From positions 1 through 50,464 of the forward strand of contig NW_021835390.1 in the NCBI RefSeq assembly GCF_006345805.1: a DNA stretch of 50,464 nucleotides, given 5' to 3'. Shown here piece after piece: positions 172 through 48,469 of this stretch. The notes below the pieces were generated by a model. It saw only the letters and a program-made list of their open reading frames with translations. It was not told the origin of the DNA and did no database searches. The translations under genes were made by a program, and so were the position numbers. The first letter of the stretch is position 1; each line of letters opens with the position of its first letter. This DNA is from Octopus sinensis (taxonomy: Eukaryota).

Positions 172-540
172 ATTATTCTCTTATTCTTTTACTTGTTTCA
201 GTCATTTGACTGCGGCCATACTAGAGCACCGCTGTTTAGTCGAAGAAATCGACCCCATGGACTTATTCTTTGTAAGACTGGTACTTATTTATTCTTTCGG
301 TCACTTTTGCCGAACCGCTAAGTTTTGAGGCGTAAACACCCAACATCGGTTGTCAAGCGATGGTGGAGGTGGGGGGTGTGGAAAAGAGACACACAGACAC
401 AGACACAGACACACACACACACACACACACACACGACGGGTTTCTTTCAGTTTCCATCTACCAAATCCACTCACAAGGCTTTGGTTGGTCCGAGGCTATA
501 GTAGAAAACACTTGCCCAAGGTGCCATGCAGCGGGACTGC
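172..540 (-). mobile_element. SINE family A copy, head truncated
   Basis: Its reverse complement matches the body and tail of 43473-43882. Confidence 0.85.
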
Positions 541-850
541 TCCTTGCCACACAGCGACGCCTGCGCAAAGTATATGTTTGGCAATGTGCTCTGAAATTTA
601 GATGGATTATAAACAGGACATTTTGCTGGCTGTATAGGAATGGTCATGGCTGTTTGAACGTCTTTGATTAGAAGTAACAAGAACGGCAACGATTGCGGTT
701 AAAACTATGATAACAGTGACGATGACAACAGCGATGACGACTATAATTACGACCACACTTAAGATAAGTACTACGACAACGACTACTACGACTATGACAA
801 GTCGATGAGTTCGACTCGGGCTACGCCAACGACTGCAACTGCAGAGACGC

Positions 851-1035
851 GGAGACGCAATCGCCCAGTGGTTAGGACAGCGGACTCGCGGTCGTAAGAA
901 CGCGGTTTCGATTCCCAGACCGGGTATTGTGAGTGTTTATCGAGCAGTAACACCTAAGCTCCACGAGTCTCCGGCGTGGGGTTGGTGGGTGAACCCCGCT
1001 GTACTCTTTCACCACAACTTTCACTCTTTCTTCCT
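851..1035 (+). mobile_element. tRNA(Arg)-like-headed SINE (family C), 3'-truncated
   Basis: GGAGACGCAATCGCCCAGTGGTTAGGACAGCGGACTCGCGGTCG...GGTTTCGATTCCC shows an A box, a TCG anticodon-like loop and a B box, followed by a non-tRNA body. It resembles octopus OR-type SINEs (from memory). Confidence 0.7.
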
Positions 1036-1319
1036 ACTTCTGTCACAAAGCAGAGGAAACATGATGTAATCCACTATGGTGTGGTAAACTTTCAGACCCT
1101 AGTCTAGATTGCGAATCCTCTGTACCCCAGGATGGTTCAGCCCTCCACCCGTTAAAAAAATTACCGTTTACGGAATGAGGATAACAACGTAGTTTTCGCA
1201 CCCGTGCAACCGCCAGTCTATCGTGTGTGGTTGGTGGATCTTCAAGTTGCCACATGCATTCTTAGTAGCTTCGAATTAGAGATTATTCTTTGTGGCTAAG
1301 GGCGAGAATCCTGATTGGA

Positions 1320-1590
1320 AGAAGACTACAGCAGCGACTACGATGAACGCTATGACTCCAGTTACGACAACAACTCTGTCTACGGTCATAACTACAGCGA
1401 GGCCTACGACTACCACGAGTCAGACAACTTCGGCCATGATTACGACAACTTGTACTACAACTACGACCACGACGTTTTCGACGAGCGAGGACTGTAACTA
1501 GAACTACGACGACAACTATGATTGCGGTTACGGTGAAGCCTATGACTACGGCTACGCCGATGACTACAATAAGGACGACGACGACGCAGT
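1320..1590. repeat. Cryptic (ACG/ACT)n trinucleotide array; continuation of the same tract at ~685-840
   Basis: 3-bp periodic gactac/gacgac units. Confidence 0.8.
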
Positions 1591-1764
1591 GATTAGTTCG
1601 ACTTAGTCCTCGGAGAGCTCTAATGTTTTGAATTGATGTCAGGAGTTCATTTGTATAATTGTATGACAAGAGTATTTTGAAATTATAAAACGTTATAAAA
1701 AGTAAGTTGAGAATTGGCAAAGTCATTAGAGCGTCAAACAAACAAACTGCAAAAAACAAAAAAA

Positions 1765-2185
1765 TGTTAGCGTCTGAGTTCGAGTCCCACTCAGGTCAAT
1801 TTCCTCACTTTTGCGATTGATAAAGAACAATTACTTGGGTGACATATTTACAGAGTTGCTAGAGATATCTTTACGGTATTTGCTTCGGCTCTCTGGATTC
1901 AAATCCTCCGGAAGTCAGTTTCGTCTTTCACGCTTTTGATATCGATTGATAAAGTGCCAGTCTTTGAACGATGTATCAGTGGAATTGCTGGCGATTTCTT
2001 TTACGTTGTTTGTTTCGACTCTCTGCGCTCTGGGTCGAAATACAGCGGAGCTCAATTTCATCTTTCACCTTTTTAGCATCGATAAAGTACCAGTCCATCA
2101 GCGATATATTAACAAAATTGTTTAAGATGTCTTGCGCTATCTATTGCAGATCTTTGCATTTTGAGTTCAAACCCCACCTCTCTGT
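1765..2185 (+). repeat. Old degenerate tandem array (3-4 units, ~110-130 bp) of SINE family B core
   Basis: Units of the form (g)agttc(g/a)aa...gtca.ttt..ctttca..tttt...tcgat..aaagt.ccagtc recur. Confidence 0.5.
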
Positions 2186-3075
2186 AGTGGCTCTCTTTTA
2201 GTGACTAACTTTTATAAAAGTTAGCCAATGCAAGAAAAGAAGAGGCATTGGATAATTAATTAATAATGGCAACCCTGTGTAAATTACCTAGATGTCACTA
2301 GAGTCATGTCTGACTCCAATCTATAATAATGAGTCATCGTAGGGTTAGTTTAGAGTCAACGAGGTAGTTGAGCAGACAAGTACATCCTCTGAAGAAATAT
2401 AAAAATATAGATACGCTAAAAATAAAATGTCCGACATGTTTGCTTCATTCAACAATCTTAAGATTATATGCACCAAGTCTACACGAAGAGGAATCATCGG
2501 GGAAGCTAAACCAGTCACAGAAAACTCAAGAACTCATTAAAGCAACCAAACCAATGCTATATAACAGTGAAAAAATTAAATAAATAAATAAGTAAAAACC
2601 GAAACTCCATAAGAACTTTAAAAAATAGCTTAATATAAATGAAAATGAATATAAAACAAATATTGGCTTATGTGAGTCACATGAGTTGCACGTTTGTCAC
2701 TATTCTCTTTCTCTCTTGCGCGCTCTTTCTCTCCCTCTCTCTTTATTAATCTATCTATCTCTACTCCCTCTCTTCCTCTCTATTCCGACTTTCTTTCTGC
2801 CCTTTACGCCTCCCACTTTTTATTGCTTCGCTGCATGCTCCCTGTCTATGCCGCGGTATCTCCCTTTCTTTTAATGCCCTCTCTCCCGACCTTTCTCTCT
2901 TTCTTTCCCCTTCATCACTACCATGTCCTCTCTCTTCGCGCCTTGTCTATCTGTCTGTCTGTCTCTCTCTCTCTGTTTCACTATCAGCCATCTTCCTCCT
3001 TCGATAATGTGTTTAAGTGCCGACGTAATGCGGTTATATAAAGCAACAATAAAACATACACTCATACATGCATAC

Positions 3076-3115
<40 letters not shown>

Positions 3116-3479
3116 CACGGACACACACATATTGACATTTATTTCCTGTTAGTTGTTTATTTAAGGAAGGAGATCCCGGGACGTATTTGAAAAAAGAAAA
3201 AAGAAAATGAAAAGGAAATTTGTACTATTTTTTTCTTCGCTTCTTACCTTGCACTCGAAGTACGATTGTGTTCGGCGTGTCTTATAAGCCCGACAGTCCC
3301 ACTTTAATAGAGAGACTAAGCTCTAGCAACAGGAAAATAATCAGATCACTTGAAAAGTTTTAAAGAAGACACTAATGTATAAAGCAGACGATAATGTTTT
3401 CAACATGTCGCTGGTACAACCAGATGTTGTCATCCAAATACACTGATTCGAACACACATGCGCAGACAACGCACATACA

Positions 3480-4065
3480 TAGACAGACATATGTACATAC
3501 GCATATATATGTATATATTGGTGTGTGTGTGTGTGTGTGTTTTCCTCATATATATATATATATACATACATACACACATGCATATATATTAACAGTTGTG
3601 TAAATATACATTCTTACTCCGAATAAATATACGCACATACACCATATCATATGTAACTGCGTATACATACATACATACATACATACATACATACATACAT
3701 ACATACATACATACATGTATATATACACACACATATATATATATATGTGTGTGTGAGCGCGTATATACATATACATATATATGTATAAATAAATGCATAA
3801 TATTATACATGTGTATGTGTATATATATGTATATAAGACTCACTCACACAGTTATACATATGCACATATACTTATATACAAAAGAGGTATACATATATAT
3901 ATATATACACACACATATATATATATATATATGCAACTTATACCTATGTGTATATATATAGTATACCATCATTATACATAAGTGTGTGGAATGTATGATA
4001 TATATATATATATATATATATAAATATATATATATTATCCATACATACATACATACATACATACA

Positions 4066-11267: not shown

Positions 11268-11680
11268 GTTTGTCTGTCCTTGTTTGTCCCCTCTGTGTTT
11301 AGTCCCTTGTGGGTAGTAAAGAAATAGGTATTTCGTCTGCCGTTACGTTCTGAGTTCAAATTCCGCCGAGGTCGACTTTGCCTTTCATCCTTTCGGGGTC
11401 GATTAAATAAGTACCAGTTCCGCACTGGGGTCGATATAATCGACTTAATCTGCTTGTCTGTCTTTGTTTGTCTCCTCTGTGTTTAGTCCCTTGTGGGTAG
11501 TAAAGAAATAGGTATTTCGTCTGCCGCTACGTTCTGAGTTCAAATTCCGCCGAGGTCGACTTTGCCTTTCATCCTTTCGGGGTCGATTAAATAAGTACCA
11601 GTTGCGCACTGGAGTCGATCTAATCGACTGTGCCCTTCCCAAAACATTTCGGTCCTTCTGCGTAGAGTAGAAAAACAATT
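11268..11680 (+). mobile_element. Tandem/nested SINE family B array, 184-bp period
   Basis: The tail-to-body junction AAAGAAATA|GGTATTTCGTC occurs at 11326/7 and 11510/1. Confidence 0.85.
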
Positions 11681-22449: not shown

Positions 22450-22610
22450 CTCTTTCTCCCCTTGTTTTTTCTGTGTCCCTTTCTGTAGAAGAGCGTAGGC
22501 TCGAAACGTAAAAGACTTTTTTCTATTGCTGAGCGTTATACTAATACATCTGTTTGTTTTCTACACCACCTGTGTTCGTCTTTTGTTTTTTTCGTAAACT
22601 CTCCCTATAT
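22450..22610 (+). repeat. Dispersed short repeat with variant hammerhead (related copies ~9215-9390 +, 25790-25985 -, 30880-31030 -, 48270-48450 -)
   Basis: Shared segment GAAGAGCGTAGGCTCGAAACGTAAAAGACTTT...GAGCG...CTAATAC. Confidence 0.75.
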
Positions 22611-24549: not shown

Positions 24550-24597
<48 letters not shown>

Positions 24598-24834
24598 AGA
24601 GGGGTTTAATACCTCTAAGGGATAATAAAAATCCAGAGTCGCCCCTGGCTATTAGCTGGGTAGGTACAGTCTTTTGTAAGGTTGTACGGTAGTAAGTGGT
24701 TCGGTTGGTGAACCGGAGTTTAGGTTATATAGGAGAAGAAAATAGATAAAAACAACAATGAGAAACTCGTGGTTTACGTCGGTATGTCTTTCATTAAATA
24801 GGTAAGAAAGAAGGAAGAAGCAGAGATGAGGGTA

Positions 24835-24885
24835 GCATTTACGATCGTTTCGATTTACTGGTTTAAGTAAATCTCTTCAGAATGC
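24835..24885 (-). ncRNA. Minimal type-I hammerhead ribozyme motif, fully canonical core
   Basis: Minus strand: GCATT CTGAAGA GATTTACT taaacc AGTAAATC GAAA CGATCG TA AATGC. This gives stem I GCATT/AATGC, core CUGAAGA, a perfect 8-bp stem II, GAAA, a palindromic short stem III and a GUA cleavage triplet. Confidence 0.85.
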
Positions 24886-24951
24886 GAAAATAGATAGATG
24901 CATCGGTAAGATGCGAAAACAATTGATACATATGTGATGGTAATGTATCAT

Positions 24952-25014
<63 letters not shown>

Positions 25015-25270
25015 AATGGAATAATTATGCAAAGTGTAAAACAGATGATGAGTAAAGCACCGGCACAGTTTAGGTTACCTGTTGTTATCCATAGATTTAC
25101 TCCAGGAACTTCATAGTGGCAGTTAGGGTAATAGTATTAATAATATAGATGGAATGTTTATTAGACTTTATTGAGTAGTTCTGGGCCTCTTCGGGTACAT
25201 CAATACAAAATTTGCAGTAGAGATTTCTTGCGTCGGCTTGCTTACCACTATACGTCCATCTTTTTTTGTT

Positions 25271-25320
25271 GATGTATCTGAAGAGACCCAGAACGACGGG
25301 TCGAAACATGTGTCGTACTC
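25271..25320 (+). ncRNA. Minimal type-I hammerhead ribozyme motif
   Basis: GATGTAT CTGAAGA GACCC agaacgac GGGTC GAAA CATGTG TC GTACTC: canonical core, 5-bp stem II, stem III with an ACATGT palindrome, GUC triplet and a stem I with one bulge. AATAAA follows immediately. Confidence 0.8.
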
Positions 25321-25496
25321 AATAAAGTATAATACACATTCCATCTCCTAATTTATTTATACCATTATATAGTATTATAATGTATTATATATATTATATA
25401 CTATAATCTGTATACACACACACACACACACACACCACACATATATATATACACATTATATATATACACGCATATATATCACACACACCACATAAC

Positions 25497-25551
<55 letters not shown>

Positions 25552-25884
25552 TATATATACATATATATATATGTGTGTGTGTGTGTATGTGACGGACTTA
25601 TATTAGAAGTGCAGCGGTTATTAAATTGTTGACGCAGAAGTTAATGTCCAAAATGTGAGATTTCATACCCGTATTATTTGATATATCACTCTATTTCCAT
25701 CGATATTGAGACCTATCCCGTCTGTCGCCACCCGCCTTTTGTCATATATATATATATATATATATATATAGTAAACCCCCCCCCCCCCCCAAGAAAAACG
25801 AAGAAAAAAAACAAGAAAAAACAACAACGCGAGGACGTGGTACATGTAAGGTATTAATAAGACGCTCAGAGAAGGCAAAAAATG

Positions 25885-25919
25885 GTTTTACGTTTCGAGA
25901 AAAGCTCTTCTTCAGAAAC
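25885..25919 (-). ncRNA. Minimal hammerhead-like motif inside a ~200-bp dispersed repeat (25790-25985)
   Basis: Minus strand: GTTT CTGAAGA A GAG ctttt CTC GAAA CG TA AAAC. Stem I is GTTT/AAAC, there is one extra A after the core, and the triplet is GUA. Confidence 0.6.
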
Positions 25920-26635
25920 AGGAGACAGAGGAAAGCCCAAAAGAAGAGAAAGACGGAGGAAAAAATTGTCAACAATCCACGTGTTGTTATATATGTATGT
26001 ATGTATATAAGTTGAAAATGTCGCAAAGACTGAAACCGGTACTAAAATGTTCTTCATGATAAGATTATTTTAGAATTTTCTACCTTGTCCTATTTTCTTT
26101 ATATGTGTGTGTGTGTGTGCGCGTATATATGTATATATATATGTGTGTGTGTATTTAACGTATATGTATTTAAAAGTCACAATGACAAACGTTGTTTTAG
26201 ATATCACAATGACGGATGGGTCTCGGCTGGAACGTCTTTGATCATAAATTTGCACAACGTATGTCGATCTGAGTACTAAACAACAACAGCATCGACTTCA
26301 AATCCTCCACTATCACCTCTACACCTTCTTCTCCGCCTCCTCCTCATTTCACGATATCCCTACCACCACCATACAACCACTAGGAACAATGGCTGTCCAT
26401 AACATCCTAGTTCTGTTATGTGATTGTCACATGAGTGTCAGAGAAGGTGTCAGAAACTGCGATCTCAACTATCAATATCCAGAGAGCGATAGGTAGAGGA
26501 GAAGATCCAGAGAGAACAAGAGAGGAAAGAAACTACGTGCGAGTGAAAAATAGAGCGGAGGAAGAGAAACAGTGAGAGAGTAGAAAGAGAAGAAAGACAG
26601 AGGTGGGGGGACTCTGAGCTATTTAAGAAAAGGAG

Positions 26636-26677
<42 letters not shown>

Positions 26678-26957
26678 GAGAAGAGTGTGTAGAAAGTATG
26701 AGACAGGTAGACATAAAAAGTAAGACAAAGCAAAGTGACAGATATATAGTCCATCAGATAGATGGCAGGTGGATGGGTGGCTGGTTGGTTGGTTGGTTGG
26801 TTGGTTGGTTGGTAGGTGGGTGGTTAGAGACATTGTGAATGGGTGTATAAAGAGATAAAGACTAAGTTGGTGTTGATAGATACACAGAAGGATATGTGTG
26901 TGCGCGCGTGTTAAACATATATACATACACACACATATATATATATATATGTATGTT

Positions 26958-27118
26958 TTTCATTCTTTTACTTGTTTCAGTCATTTGACTGCGGCCAAGC
27001 TGGAGCACTGCCTTTAGTCGAACAAATAGACCAGGACTTATTCTTTGAAGGCCTAGTACCTTATTCGATCGTTCTCTTTTGCCGAACCGCTAAGTTATGG
27101 GCACGCAAACACATCATC
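26958..27118 (-). mobile_element. SINE family A 3' half
   Basis: ttttacttgtttcagtcatttgactgcggcc...gccgaaccgctaag. Confidence 0.85.
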
Positions 27119-27653
27119 AAACTGTTAAACGTGAAGGAGGATATGGGATGATCGGGGGTGGGGCTATATCTTGGAAATCCACTGGCCCAATCACTTATCT
27201 TCATGGCAGAATTAATAGTCAAGACTATTTAAGCATTTTTATCTGATCAAATTTATCCTATATTTGCGGAACTGTTTCCCGGAGGGAAAGGCAGTCTTCA
27301 GAATGATAATGCACCAATTCACACAGTTTAAGTTGTTCCTGAATGGCACGAGGAACGTTCTAGTGAAGTTGAACAACTTATCTAGCCACCACAGTCCCTA
27401 GATCTCAATATTATTGAACATTTATGGTGCATTTTAGAAAAAAACAAGTAAGGAGTCGATATCCTCCACCATCATCACTACAAGAACTGGAGATTGTTTT
27501 AGCTGAAGAATGGACAAAAATTCCTTTGGAAACAATTCAAACTCTGTACGAGTCCATACCTCATAGAATTCAAGCTGTAATTACTGCCAAAGGCGGTCTA
27601 ACCCCATATTAAAATTTGTTTGAAATTTCAAGGTATTTACATTATTTTGTCAA

Positions 27654-27658
<5 letters not shown>
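27119..27658 (+). mobile_element. 3' half of an inactive Tc1-like transposon with DD36E spacing
   Basis: TVKREGG...AISWKSTGP...QNDNAPIH...PPQSLDLNIIEHLW...RIQAVITAKGGLTPY*. I counted 36 residues between the second D and E. The right TIR remnant attattttgtcaaacc runs into (CT)n. Confidence 0.85.
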
Positions 27659-27745
<87 letters not shown>

Positions 27746-27800
27746 GAGTGAGTAGAGAAACGAAAGAAGGGCAATCAACACATCTATTGGGAATTACGTT

Positions 27801-27945
27801 TGAATCAAAGCAGGTTGATTCAATCCCCTTGGTATCCTGAGTTTCAAGCGTGATGCTAATCTTCGGGCAAACTCCAATGTCTGAACATTAATTTCACATT
27901 TGAAACCAGAGTGCCAAGGAGTTTGAATTAAGCTGCTTTGATTCA
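27801..27945. repeat. 145-bp foldback hairpin (~68-bp arms, 8-nt loop)
   Basis: tgaatcaaagcaggttgattcaa...cttcgggca aactccaa tgtctgaac...ttgaattaagctgctttgattca. Confidence 0.85.
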
Positions 27946-28021
27946 TATATATATATATATATATACGGATGAATGAATTATCCTTTGTTTACCGTTAACA
28001 TGGAAAATTCAGGCTCGCTTT

Positions 28022-28103
28022 CTTTCCTGATGAGAAGATTGCATTTTTCACCGTTTATTCCTCTAGAATAATACCATGTTGTCGTCGAAACATATGTCGA
28101 AAG
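28022..28103 (+). ncRNA. Minimal type-I hammerhead motif with long stem II
   Basis: CTTTC CTGATGA GAAGATTGCAT...ATGTTGTCGTC GAAA CATATG TC GAAAG: stem I CTTTC/GAAAG, canonical core, imperfect ~11-bp stem II, palindromic CATATG stem III and GUC triplet. The ~180-bp host element lies between (TA)n tracts. Confidence 0.75.
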
Positions 28104-28145
28104 TAAAAGAATTTTAAAAGACCTTCGTTCAACTCCATTTATTTA

Positions 28146-28181
<36 letters not shown>

Positions 28182-28330
28182 AACACTTTTTCCTGCAAAA
28201 TAGGAGTGGCTTCTCCTGTTCAGGCTATATTATTGGCATTGTCCTGCGTTTGAGAATTTAAAATCATTTCTTTAACTTTCTAAGACATTTCAACGCTTCT
28301 AAAGCACACTTCGTTTGTTAACGTTCATCG

Positions 28331-28371
<41 letters not shown>

Positions 28372-28717
28372 CATGGGTAGTAGCTTGTTGTGATCGCATT
28401 CAGATTAACAATAATTGTTGATAATATTTAGCAAATTTTGTTAAAAGCGGTAAATAAAATTGTCGATAATCATAATAAGCGGATTCACAGGTGTCTGACT
28501 AGGCTCGCCTGAGGAGATCTAATTATATCGAAACATGTTAATTTTGGGGACCAGTTTTACTTTAAAGTACATTCTTCGTTTACACATTTGCTTTAGAGAT
28601 CAAGTCGTCTGACCCCTTTATCAAACATATAACTACAAATAACATTATCATTTTGAACTGAACTGATATAATTACATTAATGTAATTTTAAATACAATAC
28701 TATAATTACCAGATCCA

Positions 28718-28747
28718 CTGATGAGGTAAAGAGGACCGAAACACGTA
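28718..28747 (+). ncRNA. Decayed hammerhead core (stem I lost)
   Basis: CTGATGA GGT aaagagg ACC GAAA CACG TA. A second decayed core, CTGAGGA GAT...ATC GAAA CATG TT, lies at 28509-28539. Confidence 0.45.
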
Positions 28748-28905
28748 TACAAGCTTAATAAGGTCATTGAATACAAAAGAGATTAAGCATATCATTATAT
28801 GTGTTCTTTAAGTTCCTTCAAACAGAACAACCGACAGGAATGCGAGATGAGAAAGGACGGACCCGACTTTATCAGCAACGTGTACACCCTCACTCACGAA
28901 ACAAA

Positions 28906-30869: not shown

Positions 30870-31026
30870 TTAATTAAAAAATAAAAGCGAAGAAAAACGC
30901 AACAAGAAAAAGCAACAACGCGAGGACGTGATACATACAAAGTATTAGCAGATGCTCATGAAAGAAAGAAAGGTAGTTTTACGTTTCGAGCAAAGGCTCT
31001 TCTTCTGAGCCGGAGACAGAGGAAAG

Positions 31027-31072
<46 letters not shown>

Positions 31073-48096: not shown

Positions 48097-48163
48097 ATTT
48101 AGAGAAAAACCATTGGTTTCACATCTAGCGTGAACTAGACTGTGCTCTTCAGTTTCCCTAAAT
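48097..48163 (-). ncRNA. Minimal type-I hammerhead motif
   Basis: Minus strand: ATTTAGGGAAA CTGAAGA GCACAGTCTAG ttcacg CTAGATGT GAAA CCAATGG TT TTTCTCTAAAT. It has an 11-bp stem I (one G.U), a canonical core, a bulged stem II, a 3-bp stem III and a GUU triplet. Confidence 0.7.
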
Positions 48164-48469
48164 AGTAGCCGTCTTCTGCTGAAATAAATAACTGTTCTAT
48201 ATTCTATAGGATACGCTCTTCTCCTGATTTATGATATTGTAACGAAGATATATATATTTATATAACGGGAAAGTTTACGAAAATAAACAAAAGACGAAAG
48301 CAGGTGGAGTACAAACAAACAAATGTATTAGTATAGCGCTCAGGAATAGAAATAGAAAAAGTCTTTTACGTTTCGAGCCTACGCTCTTCGACAGAAAGAT
48401 ACACAGAAAAAAACAAGGAGAGAAAAAAATGCGTGTAGGAGCTAACATACACACATGCATATACACATA

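What the first reader, a model, noticed from the sequence alone, without database searches (positions are those of the whole stretch)
24592..28760. Cluster of unrelated short hammerhead-bearing elements parked in (TA)n tracts
Seen: hammerhead cores within ~4 kb at 24835(-), 25271(+), 25885(-), 28022(+), 28509(+) and 28718(+), plus a half core GAAACCGGTA at ~26032. Stem sequences differ completely but topology is the same (type I, CUGANGA, GAAA, palindromic stem III CGATCG/CATG/CATATG/CG). Several hosts are 180-360-bp non-coding segments bounded by (TA)n on both sides (24592-24955, 25012-25365, 27966-28148). Established: such minimal hammerheads occur in PLE pseudo-LTRs and retrozymes and are thought to cleave as dimers. 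Inference: a diverse radiation of microsatellite-targeting non-autonomous PLE/retrozyme-like elements, possibly largely unannotated in octopus.
Basis: partly seen in the sequence, partly recalled or inferred. Interest (0 to 1): 0.75.

Follow-up and report, generated by a model that had tools for sequence, protein, structure and literature searches.

The report
Piled-up Penelope retroelement ribozyme ends
Six small predicted self-cutting RNA motifs crowd 4 kb of this octopus-like genome; four are the truncated tail ends of common Penelope-type jumping genes that sit in TA repeats and two are likely older relics of the same kind, an arrangement already described, including in octopus.

Summary
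The six hammerhead cores are real (6 vs 0.01 in shuffles). Only three are complete in the window; one has a broken stem II, two lack stem I, and the 'half core' belongs to a fold-back repeat. Four host segments are families with at least hundreds of candidate copies. Longer copies run, on the ribozyme strand, into GIY-YIG endonuclease frames: three of Hydra-clade type, one of Neptune type. So these are mostly 5'-truncated, often inverted 3' ends of protein-coding Penelope-like elements (PLEs), not a separate radiation of retrozymes. (TA)n-targeting Hydra PLEs with hammerheads are published, including Hydra-1_Obim from octopus, whose ribozyme family also occurs in this window (48152). Local crowding is real but seems general near PLE ends. 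Two details go slightly beyond the papers I read: three families have two discrete 3' ends (tail 118-149 nt), with 24 of 24 complete inverted pairs short+long; and the Neptune-type family mostly occurs as a ~220-bp unit whose 5' ends stop at an initiator-like site. Cleavage and expression are untested. This scan has reported the same kind of thing on other DNA.

The parts
24593..24947 (-). F1: 5'-truncated 3' end of a Hydra-type PLE, ending at the family's long 3' end against (TA)n
   Evidence: 94% to family consensus; 503 first-look candidates, 40 scored; L019/L015/L025 link it to an upstream GIY-YIG frame
24835..24885 (-). F1 hammerhead, complete: stem I 5 bp, stem II 8 bp, palindromic stem III, predicted cut after GUA at 24840
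   Evidence: core intact in 23 of 29 copies
25015..25260 (-). F2 long arm (3' end plus 118-nt tail) of a Hydra-type PLE; its own hammerhead is partly deleted
   Evidence: deletion read; 787 candidates; L043/L155, L054, L038 carry RT thumb and/or CxCx5C linker and EN upstream
25263..25362 (+). F2 short arm, inverted against the long arm, ending at the family's short 3' end; holds the hammerhead 25269-25322 (CUGA at 25278)
   Evidence: 89% to consensus; arm ends +48 and +168 from the cut site
25771..25992 (-). F4: ~220-bp unit-length end of a Neptune-type PLE; hammerhead 25885-25919 with loop-less 4-nt palindromic stem III that can pair only between two molecules
   Evidence: 5599 candidates; Neptune RT/linker/EN upstream in L132 and in 5 of 24 other loci; 5' wall at -86..-83 from CUGA
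26010..26082 (.).
   Evidence: matches both arms of a palindromic repeat in L098
27967..28011 (-). F3 long-end arm: last 45 nt of the family's 149-nt tail, inverted
28011..28147 (+). F3 short arm of a Hydra-type PLE; hammerhead 28022-28102 (CUGA at 28027), stem II broken by one substitution in this copy
   Evidence: 94% to consensus; 1753 candidates; L088/L152, L086/L153, L079 carry EN (and RT thumb) upstream; core intact in 17 of 17 copies
28509..28539 (+). F5: isolated hammerhead core with stem II and palindromic stem III, no stem I; likely relic of an old family
   Evidence: 3 other genome matches to the core, 0 for the reversed control; flanks barely align
28634..28822 (+). F6: old low-copy repeat with hammerhead core at 28718-28747; relatives restore a 5-6-bp stem I and a palindromic stem III
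   Evidence: 69-81% matches at four other places, two with inverted second arms
48097..48163 (-). Outside the finding: complete hammerhead of the published Hydra-1_Obim type, beside (TA)n, with the family's 5' leader on the opposite strand just after it
   Evidence: compared by eye with File S2 and the consensus start in the supplement of PMC8557442

Best explanation
These are the ribozyme-bearing 3' ends (pseudo-LTRs) of at least four families of protein-coding Penelope-like retrotransposons, three Hydra-type and one Neptune-type, likely left as 5'-truncated and partly inverted insertions by repeated targeting of the same TA-microsatellite field. Shown: multicopy families; hammerhead on the coding strand downstream of a GIY-YIG frame; sharp 3' ends against microsatellite; two discrete 3' ends in F1-F3; head-to-head short+long pairs. 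Inferred from PLE biochemistry (PMC11167929): the RT-endonuclease cuts AT-rich DNA on both strands and primes reverse transcription internally on the RNA at one of two start sites, so one cut strand yields a copy with the tail and the other a copy without; early termination leaves only the end, and the split (TA)n flanks both sides. Inferred for F4: cDNA primed ~110 nt past the hammerhead runs off the RNA's 5' end at an initiator-like site, giving a unit-length solo pseudo-LTR. Inferred from PMC4209133: the minimal hammerheads would cleave only as dimers through the palindromic stem III. F5 and F6 are likely older relics of the same kind. The copies here are likely dead; nothing suggests a host function.
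For: Motif excess over shuffles. Copy searches: 503, 787, 1753, 5599 candidates. Endonuclease upstream, same strand: F1 L019 (Pfam GIY-YIG E=0.015, below curated cut-off; continuity through L015/L025); F2 L043/L155, L054, L038; F3 L088, L086 (Pfam E=0.027), L079; F4 L132 plus F4 hammerhead downstream on the same strand in 5 of 24 other loci found with the Neptune linker. Peptides match the Hydra and Neptune rows of Fig. S7 of PMC8557442 by eye. Microsatellite within 25 nt of the 3' end: 31/34, 34/38, 41/45, 38/56 arms. Two 3' ends at +113/+252, +50/+168, +53/+203. Hydra-1_Obim, (TA)n, hammerhead. Literature: single min-HHRs from truncated PLEs, opposite-strand pairs, high variability; tail on one of the inverted pLTRs; two RT start sites.
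Against: No intact full-length element was recovered for any family; all coding pieces are broken, and clade calls rest on motif comparison by eye, not a tree. F1 has no RT or linker evidence, only the EN. F4 is mostly unit-length (25 of 29 by BLAST do not pass -86), which simple random truncation does not explain. F5 and F6 have no coding partner found. Pfam hits are sub-threshold and Rfam did not detect the F1 hammerhead. Loci were the top-scoring 30 per query, so counts are biased toward window-like copies.
Confidence: 0.88

Rival explanations
1. At least F4 (and perhaps F5/F6) is a true non-autonomous short element: a solo pseudo-LTR that carries its own internal promoter, is transcribed from dispersed copies and is remobilised in trans by Neptune-type RT/EN, SINE-fashion. 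This can hold alongside the best explanation.
For: In a search that did not include the upstream part, 5' ends pile against a wall at -86..-83 from CUGA, the A of an initiator-like TCATTC; 25 of 29 by BLAST (27 of 29 by eye) do not pass it. Most abundant family. Penelope has an internal, TATA-less promoter (PMC2377424 passages); pLTR sequences suffice for mobilisation in trans (PMC3846280 passages).
Against: The same wall is expected if RT primes near the 5' end of the full-length autonomous RNA, as in PMC11167929. Longer forms are common too (1436 candidates). No subfamily test or RNA evidence separates the two.
Confidence: 0.3
2. The segments are non-LTR retrozymes: tandem-unit, non-coding elements that make self-cleaved circular RNAs and spread through them.
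For: Short non-coding hosts of 180-360 bp with type I hammerheads; retrozyme monomers are dispersed in Xenopus and derive from PLE pLTRs (bioRxiv 10.64898/2026.07.22.740005).
Against: No head-to-tail arrays of the units among the loci examined (one segmental triplication with flanks, L102); ends are 50-250 nt past the cut site rather than at it; motifs are minimal, not canonical as in PMC7229834; coding partners exist.
Confidence: 0.07
3. The cluster is a selected locus (for example a piRNA-source or regulatory RNA locus) that keeps several ribozymes together.
For: Six cores in 4.2 kb is far above the spaced-sample rate (Poisson P about 1e-10 per segment); the contig also holds three further F4-like pieces.
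Against: Half of the motifs are broken in the window; copies are as diverged as their siblings; strands are mixed; TA tracts are 3.5-fold denser here (4.3 vs 1.25 per kb); with a relaxed descriptor the flanks of PLE ends elsewhere are also enriched (10 in 248.5 kb vs 2 in 399.7 kb), though the strict descriptor showed no such enrichment (4 vs 6).
Confidence: 0.04
4. Chance motif matches in AT-rich, repetitive DNA.
For: One loose core in the region (27301, minus strand) falls inside a transposase-like fragment and is likely chance.
Against: 6 vs 0.01 in shuffles; family consensuses give complete folds.
Confidence: 0.01

Closest known systems
Hydra-clade C-terminal EN+ Penelope-like elements, incl. 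Hydra-1_Obim (Craig et al. 2021, PMC8557442; passages, section 11, supplement parts 2, 57, 58)
   Same: Hammerhead near the 3' end in sense; (TA)n insertion; GIY-YIG EN with CxxC before the conserved E; CxCx5C linker (F2); RT thumb and 'W-x-x-P' region like the Hydra rows of Fig. S7 (F2, F3); inverted truncated copy with tail at one end.
   Different: F1-F3 hammerheads are not among those in File S2; F3 has an Asn-rich stretch where the linker would be and no CxCx5C seen; tails are 118-149 nt against the 30-40 bp described; 3' UTRs are long (about 0.3-1 kb).
Neptune-clade PLEs (Neptune1_Ap row of Fig. S7 in PMC8557442)
   Same: F4-linked frames show the Neptune RT core, CxxC-PF linker and EN with the internal C..C/H/H pattern.
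   Different: F4 occurs mostly as a ~220-bp unit with a fixed 5' boundary; only 1 inverted pair in 53 loci.
Minimal hammerheads of metazoan PLEs (Cervera and de la Pena 2014, PMC4209133, parts 1-2 of 4)
   Same: Short stem I, G10.1-C11.1, palindromic or loop-less stem III, mostly single motifs from truncated PLEs, opposite-strand pairs 100-700 bp apart, many unrelated families per genome.
   Different: No cephalopod mentioned in the parts read; activity of these octopus motifs untested.
Non-LTR retrozymes (PMC7229834 passages; bioRxiv 10.64898/2026.07.22.740005 parts 1-3 of 5)
   Same: Short non-coding sequence with a type I hammerhead, PLE pLTR ancestry.
   Different: Not tandem, not cut-site-to-cut-site units, minimal rather than canonical ribozymes, coding partners present.

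Membership tests
EN+ Penelope-like elements | C-terminal GIY-YIG endonuclease upstream of the pLTR, same strand | tested here: met
   F1-F4 longer copies; Pfam GIY-YIG only sub-threshold for 2 of 5 peptides
EN+ Penelope-like elements | PLE-type RT in the same ORF | tested here: inconclusive
   RT core in L132 (F4), RT thumb in L155 (F2) and L152 (F3); none for F1; no intact ORF, no tree
EN+ Penelope-like elements | Type I hammerhead in the pLTR | tested here: met
   complete folds in consensuses of F1-F4
EN+ Penelope-like elements | 5' truncation, inverted copy, optional tail at one end | tested here: met
   (F1-F3); F4 shows 1 inverted pair in 53 loci
EN+ Penelope-like elements | Direct pLTR preceding a full ORF (partial tandem) | not tested
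   no full-length copy was retrieved
Hydra clade | CxCx5C linker, no internal CCHH, CxxC and CxH around conserved E and N | tested here: met
   F2: linker and CxxC; F3: CxxC and CxH, linker not seen; F1: EN only, one C of the CxxC changed; compared by eye
Hydra clade | RWK and DKT motifs; RT phylogeny | not tested
   N-terminal RT not recovered
Hydra clade | Insertion into (TA)n | tested here: met
   31/34, 34/38, 41/45 arms end at a microsatellite (loose definition); 23% of random positions have (TA)4 even within 300 nt
Neptune clade | CX2-5CxxC linker and CCHH-type EN | tested here: met
   frames in L132, L162-L176 match Neptune1_Ap by eye; linked to F4 in 5 of 24 independent loci
Non-LTR retrozymes | Tandem head-to-tail units each with a hammerhead | tested here: not met
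   none in the loci apart from a segmental triplication (L102)
Non-LTR retrozymes | No coding partner in cis | tested here: not met
   for F1-F4; untested for F5, F6
Non-LTR retrozymes | Monomeric linear and circular RNAs; self-cleavage | not testable with these tools
   only assembled contigs of runs guessed to be RNA were available

The most novel reading that the evidence does not exclude
The octopus copies record an asymmetric PLE integration rule: a dimeric RT-endonuclease primes the two cut target strands at two different, fixed RNA start sites 118-149 nt apart, so inverted insertions always pair one short and one long end; and the Neptune-type F4 end has become a self-propagating, internally promoted ~220-bp ribozyme SINE that starts at its initiator.
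Probability: 0.3. Interest if true: 0.55.

Novelty: new member of a known kind. Interest (0 to 1): 0.3.

Why it matters
Mostly for annotation: short TA-bounded hammerhead islands in octopus should be filed as PLE ends, not as SINEs, MITEs or new ribozyme RNAs. The thousands of copies also offer a natural dataset on an open point, how PLEs make inverted, tailed insertions: in vitro both strands were extended with no difference in start site (PMC11167929), whereas here complete inverted pairs were short+long in 24 of 24 cases. If that holds in an unbiased genome-wide set, it constrains the integration model; if F4 is self-propagating it would be a clear PLE-dependent SINE.

Tried and rejected
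Rfam: whole window at E<=10 gave 435 matches, the 150 shown being microsatellite-driven miRNA-type hits, none a hammerhead; the F1 segment alone gave no hammerhead. Exact-core search for F6 found only the window. Within-family covariation: double changes were 2, 1 and 3 cells in F1, F2, F4 and all look like CpG decay on both strands, so they are not counted as support (F3 pairs not counted, pattern failed). RNA: no RNA holder on record was listed; contigs of three runs guessed to be RNA and one other cover F1-like sequence but cannot show strand, ends or level; used neither for nor against. Protein search with the F2 RT thumb returned three hits, one an Octopus bimaculoides protein with an uninformative name; Pfam added nothing. 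L157-L160 were fetched but not analysed. Strict-descriptor test for clustering near other PLE ends was negative, relaxed one positive; in the latter one duplicated hit (L032) is counted twice. Half-core reading of 26032 rejected. A GIY-YIG piece downstream of F3 in L063 was treated as an unrelated neighbour. Paper searches; none of the listed titles or the parts read reports strict short+long pairing, long tails or an F4-like unit, but subscription papers, Repbase/Dfam, the Zenodo library of PMC13282606 and bioRxiv supplements were not visible.
Full report
Observation. The six cores are present. A descriptor scan placed CUGANGA at 24880(-), 25278(+), 25915(-), 28027(+), 28509(+) and 28718(+), and found others at 48152(-), 6430(+) and 27301(-). 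I call the hosts F1 (24880), F2 (25278), F3 (28027), F4 (25915), F5 (28509) and F6 (28718). F1, F2 and F4 are complete type I folds. F3's window copy has a broken stem II. F5 and F6 have no stem I. The 'half core' near 26032 lies in a fragment that matches both arms of a fold-back repeat in L098 and has no CUGANGA partner. Rfam does not see F1.

Families. Searches of the own genome (2.7 Gb) gave 503, 787, 1753 and 5599 first-look candidates for F1, F2, F3 and F4; 40 were scored and 30 loci fetched each. These are lower bounds, and the loci are biased to window-like copies. Copies differ from their consensus by 10-13% on average, and the four consensuses are unrelated. The catalytic core is intact in 23 of 29, 8 of 22, 17 of 17 and 23 of 29 aligned copies. 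F5 has three other core matches. F6 has four distant relatives, two with an inverted second arm; their alignment restores stem I and a palindromic stem III.

Coding partners. Longer copies continue upstream on the hammerhead strand into endonuclease frames. F1: L019 carries a GIY-YIG frame about 0.6 kb upstream, and L015 and L025 align co-linearly from its C-terminal part to the hammerhead. F2: L043/L155 carries RT thumb, a CxCx5C linker and EN; L054 and L038 carry EN pieces. F3: L088/L152 has RT thumb plus EN, and L086 and L079 have EN. By eye these peptides match the Hydra rows of Fig. S7 in PMC8557442 and the features in its section 11. F4: L132 has a Neptune-like RT core, linker and start of EN joined to the F4 upstream region. 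A search with that linker gave 25 loci; besides the seed, 5 of 24 have the F4 hammerhead on the same strand within the 1.5-kb flank, and 6 match the F4 upstream region. Pfam support is weak (E 0.015 and 0.027, below cut-off), no intact ORF was found, and no tree was built.

Architecture. Microsatellite follows the 3' end within 25 nt in 31 of 34, 34 of 38, 41 of 45 and 38 of 56 arms (loose definition). F1-F3 each have two discrete 3' ends: +113/+252, about +50/+168 and +53/+203 nt from the predicted cut. The tails are thus about 139, 118 and 149 nt. Of 30 head-to-head pairs listed for F1-F3, 24 have both arms ending downstream of the cut site, and all 24 are one short plus one long end; two of these are the window's own F2 and F3. 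In the other 6 the second arm is a small internal piece. F2 and many F3 loci were retrieved with short+long queries, so they are biased. F1 was retrieved with a long arm only, and all 4 partner arms are short. Junctions differ between loci, which points to independent events.

F4 differs. With a query lacking the upstream part, 5' ends stop at a wall 83-86 nt upstream of CUGA (6 copies), with 14 more between -80 and -56 and 5 shorter. Four pass the wall by BLAST, of which two look like alignments through microsatellite. The wall is the A of TCATTC, which I recognise from memory as an initiator-like motif. Penelope has an internal promoter (PMC2377424 passages), and a purified Poseidon protein primes internally near the pLTR-ORF junction (PMC11167929 parts 1-2 of 4). 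Run-off from the RNA's 5' end would give such a solo unit. Whether the unit then propagates by itself is open.

Crowding. Forty spaced 10-kb stretches gave 6 cores (0 full; shuffled mean 1.3) in 399.7 kb, against 8 in the 50-kb window. TA tracts are 1.25 per kb in the sample and 4.3 per kb in the region. With a relaxed descriptor that requires all three stems, flanks of PLE ends elsewhere hold 10 hits in 248.5 kb against 2 in the sample; the strict descriptor showed no such difference. I read the cluster as an extreme case of PLE ends piling up in TA-rich fields, picked out of a very large genome. This is plausible, not proven. TE hotspots are reported for O. vulgaris (PMC13282606 parts 1-2 of 3).

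What is known. PMC4209133 (parts 1-2 of 4) describes thousands of minimal hammerheads per genome, mostly single and from truncated PLEs, with opposite-strand pairs, palindromic stem III, extreme variability and weak dimer-only cleavage. PMC8557442 defines the Hydra clade as (TA)n-inserting with hammerheads, notes inverted copies with a 30-40-bp tail at one end, and lists Hydra-1_Obim from Octopus bimaculoides. The hammerhead printed for it matches window 48152 by eye, and the start of its consensus matches the opposite-strand sequence next to it. PMC3846280 (passages) describes the tail on one inverted pLTR and solo pLTRs. Retrozymes are tandem units (PMC7229834 passages; bioRxiv 10.64898/2026.07.22.740005 parts 1-3 of 5), which these are not.

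Mechanism, shown versus inferred. Shown: motifs, families, coding linkage, end positions, pairing. Inferred: target-primed, internally initiated reverse transcription at AT-rich cuts on both strands; dimer-dependent cleavage (self-duplexes of stem III are predicted at -1.7 to -10 kcal/mol while none folds as a hairpin). In the one PLE tested, cleavage needed protein and was not required for insertion, so the ribozyme's role is unsettled.

Verdict. Real, but a known kind: new octopus members of Hydra- and Neptune-type PLE ends. Earlier notes of this scan reached the same reading on other DNA; none lies near this place. The long tails, strict short+long pairing and the unit-length F4 are modest leads. 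Interest 0.3.

Noticed in passing
window 48097-48250: Complete hammerhead of the published Hydra-1_Obim type on the minus strand, followed by that family's 5' leader on the plus strand: a two-arm insertion suggesting that the tail is the sequence leading into the ORF.
   Followed up: partly
window 30913-31027(-), 22506-22586(+), 48322-48397(-): Another F4 copy (30.9 kb) and two pieces of an F4 sister family with a decayed core; the contig is rich in PLE ends.
   Followed up: partly
window 6430(+): Hammerhead core with 6-bp stem II, loop-less stem III and no stem I; the same type occurs in L204 and L047, so a further common family.
   Followed up: no
window ~27135-27620(+): Broken frame that looks, from recall, like a Tc1/mariner DDE transposase C-terminal half; not searched against Pfam. 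The loose core at 27301 lies inside it.
   Followed up: partly
window 26010-26082; L098:2740-3162: Fold-back repeat with arms over 200 bp beside (TA)n; MITE or hammerhead-less inverted PLE end not decided.
   Followed up: partly
L152 (minus strand, 265-3900 of the reverse complement): Long inverted copy of F3 coding sequence upstream of the direct copy, i.e. a kb-scale two-arm insertion.
   Followed up: no
L006, L027, L032, L048, L053, L075, L084, L116, L119, L192 flanks: About ten further unrelated complete minimal hammerheads with palindromic stem III: many more PLE families exist in this genome.
   Followed up: no
window 11270-11629: 184-bp direct tandem duplicate (96% match) of a common repeat.
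   Followed up: no
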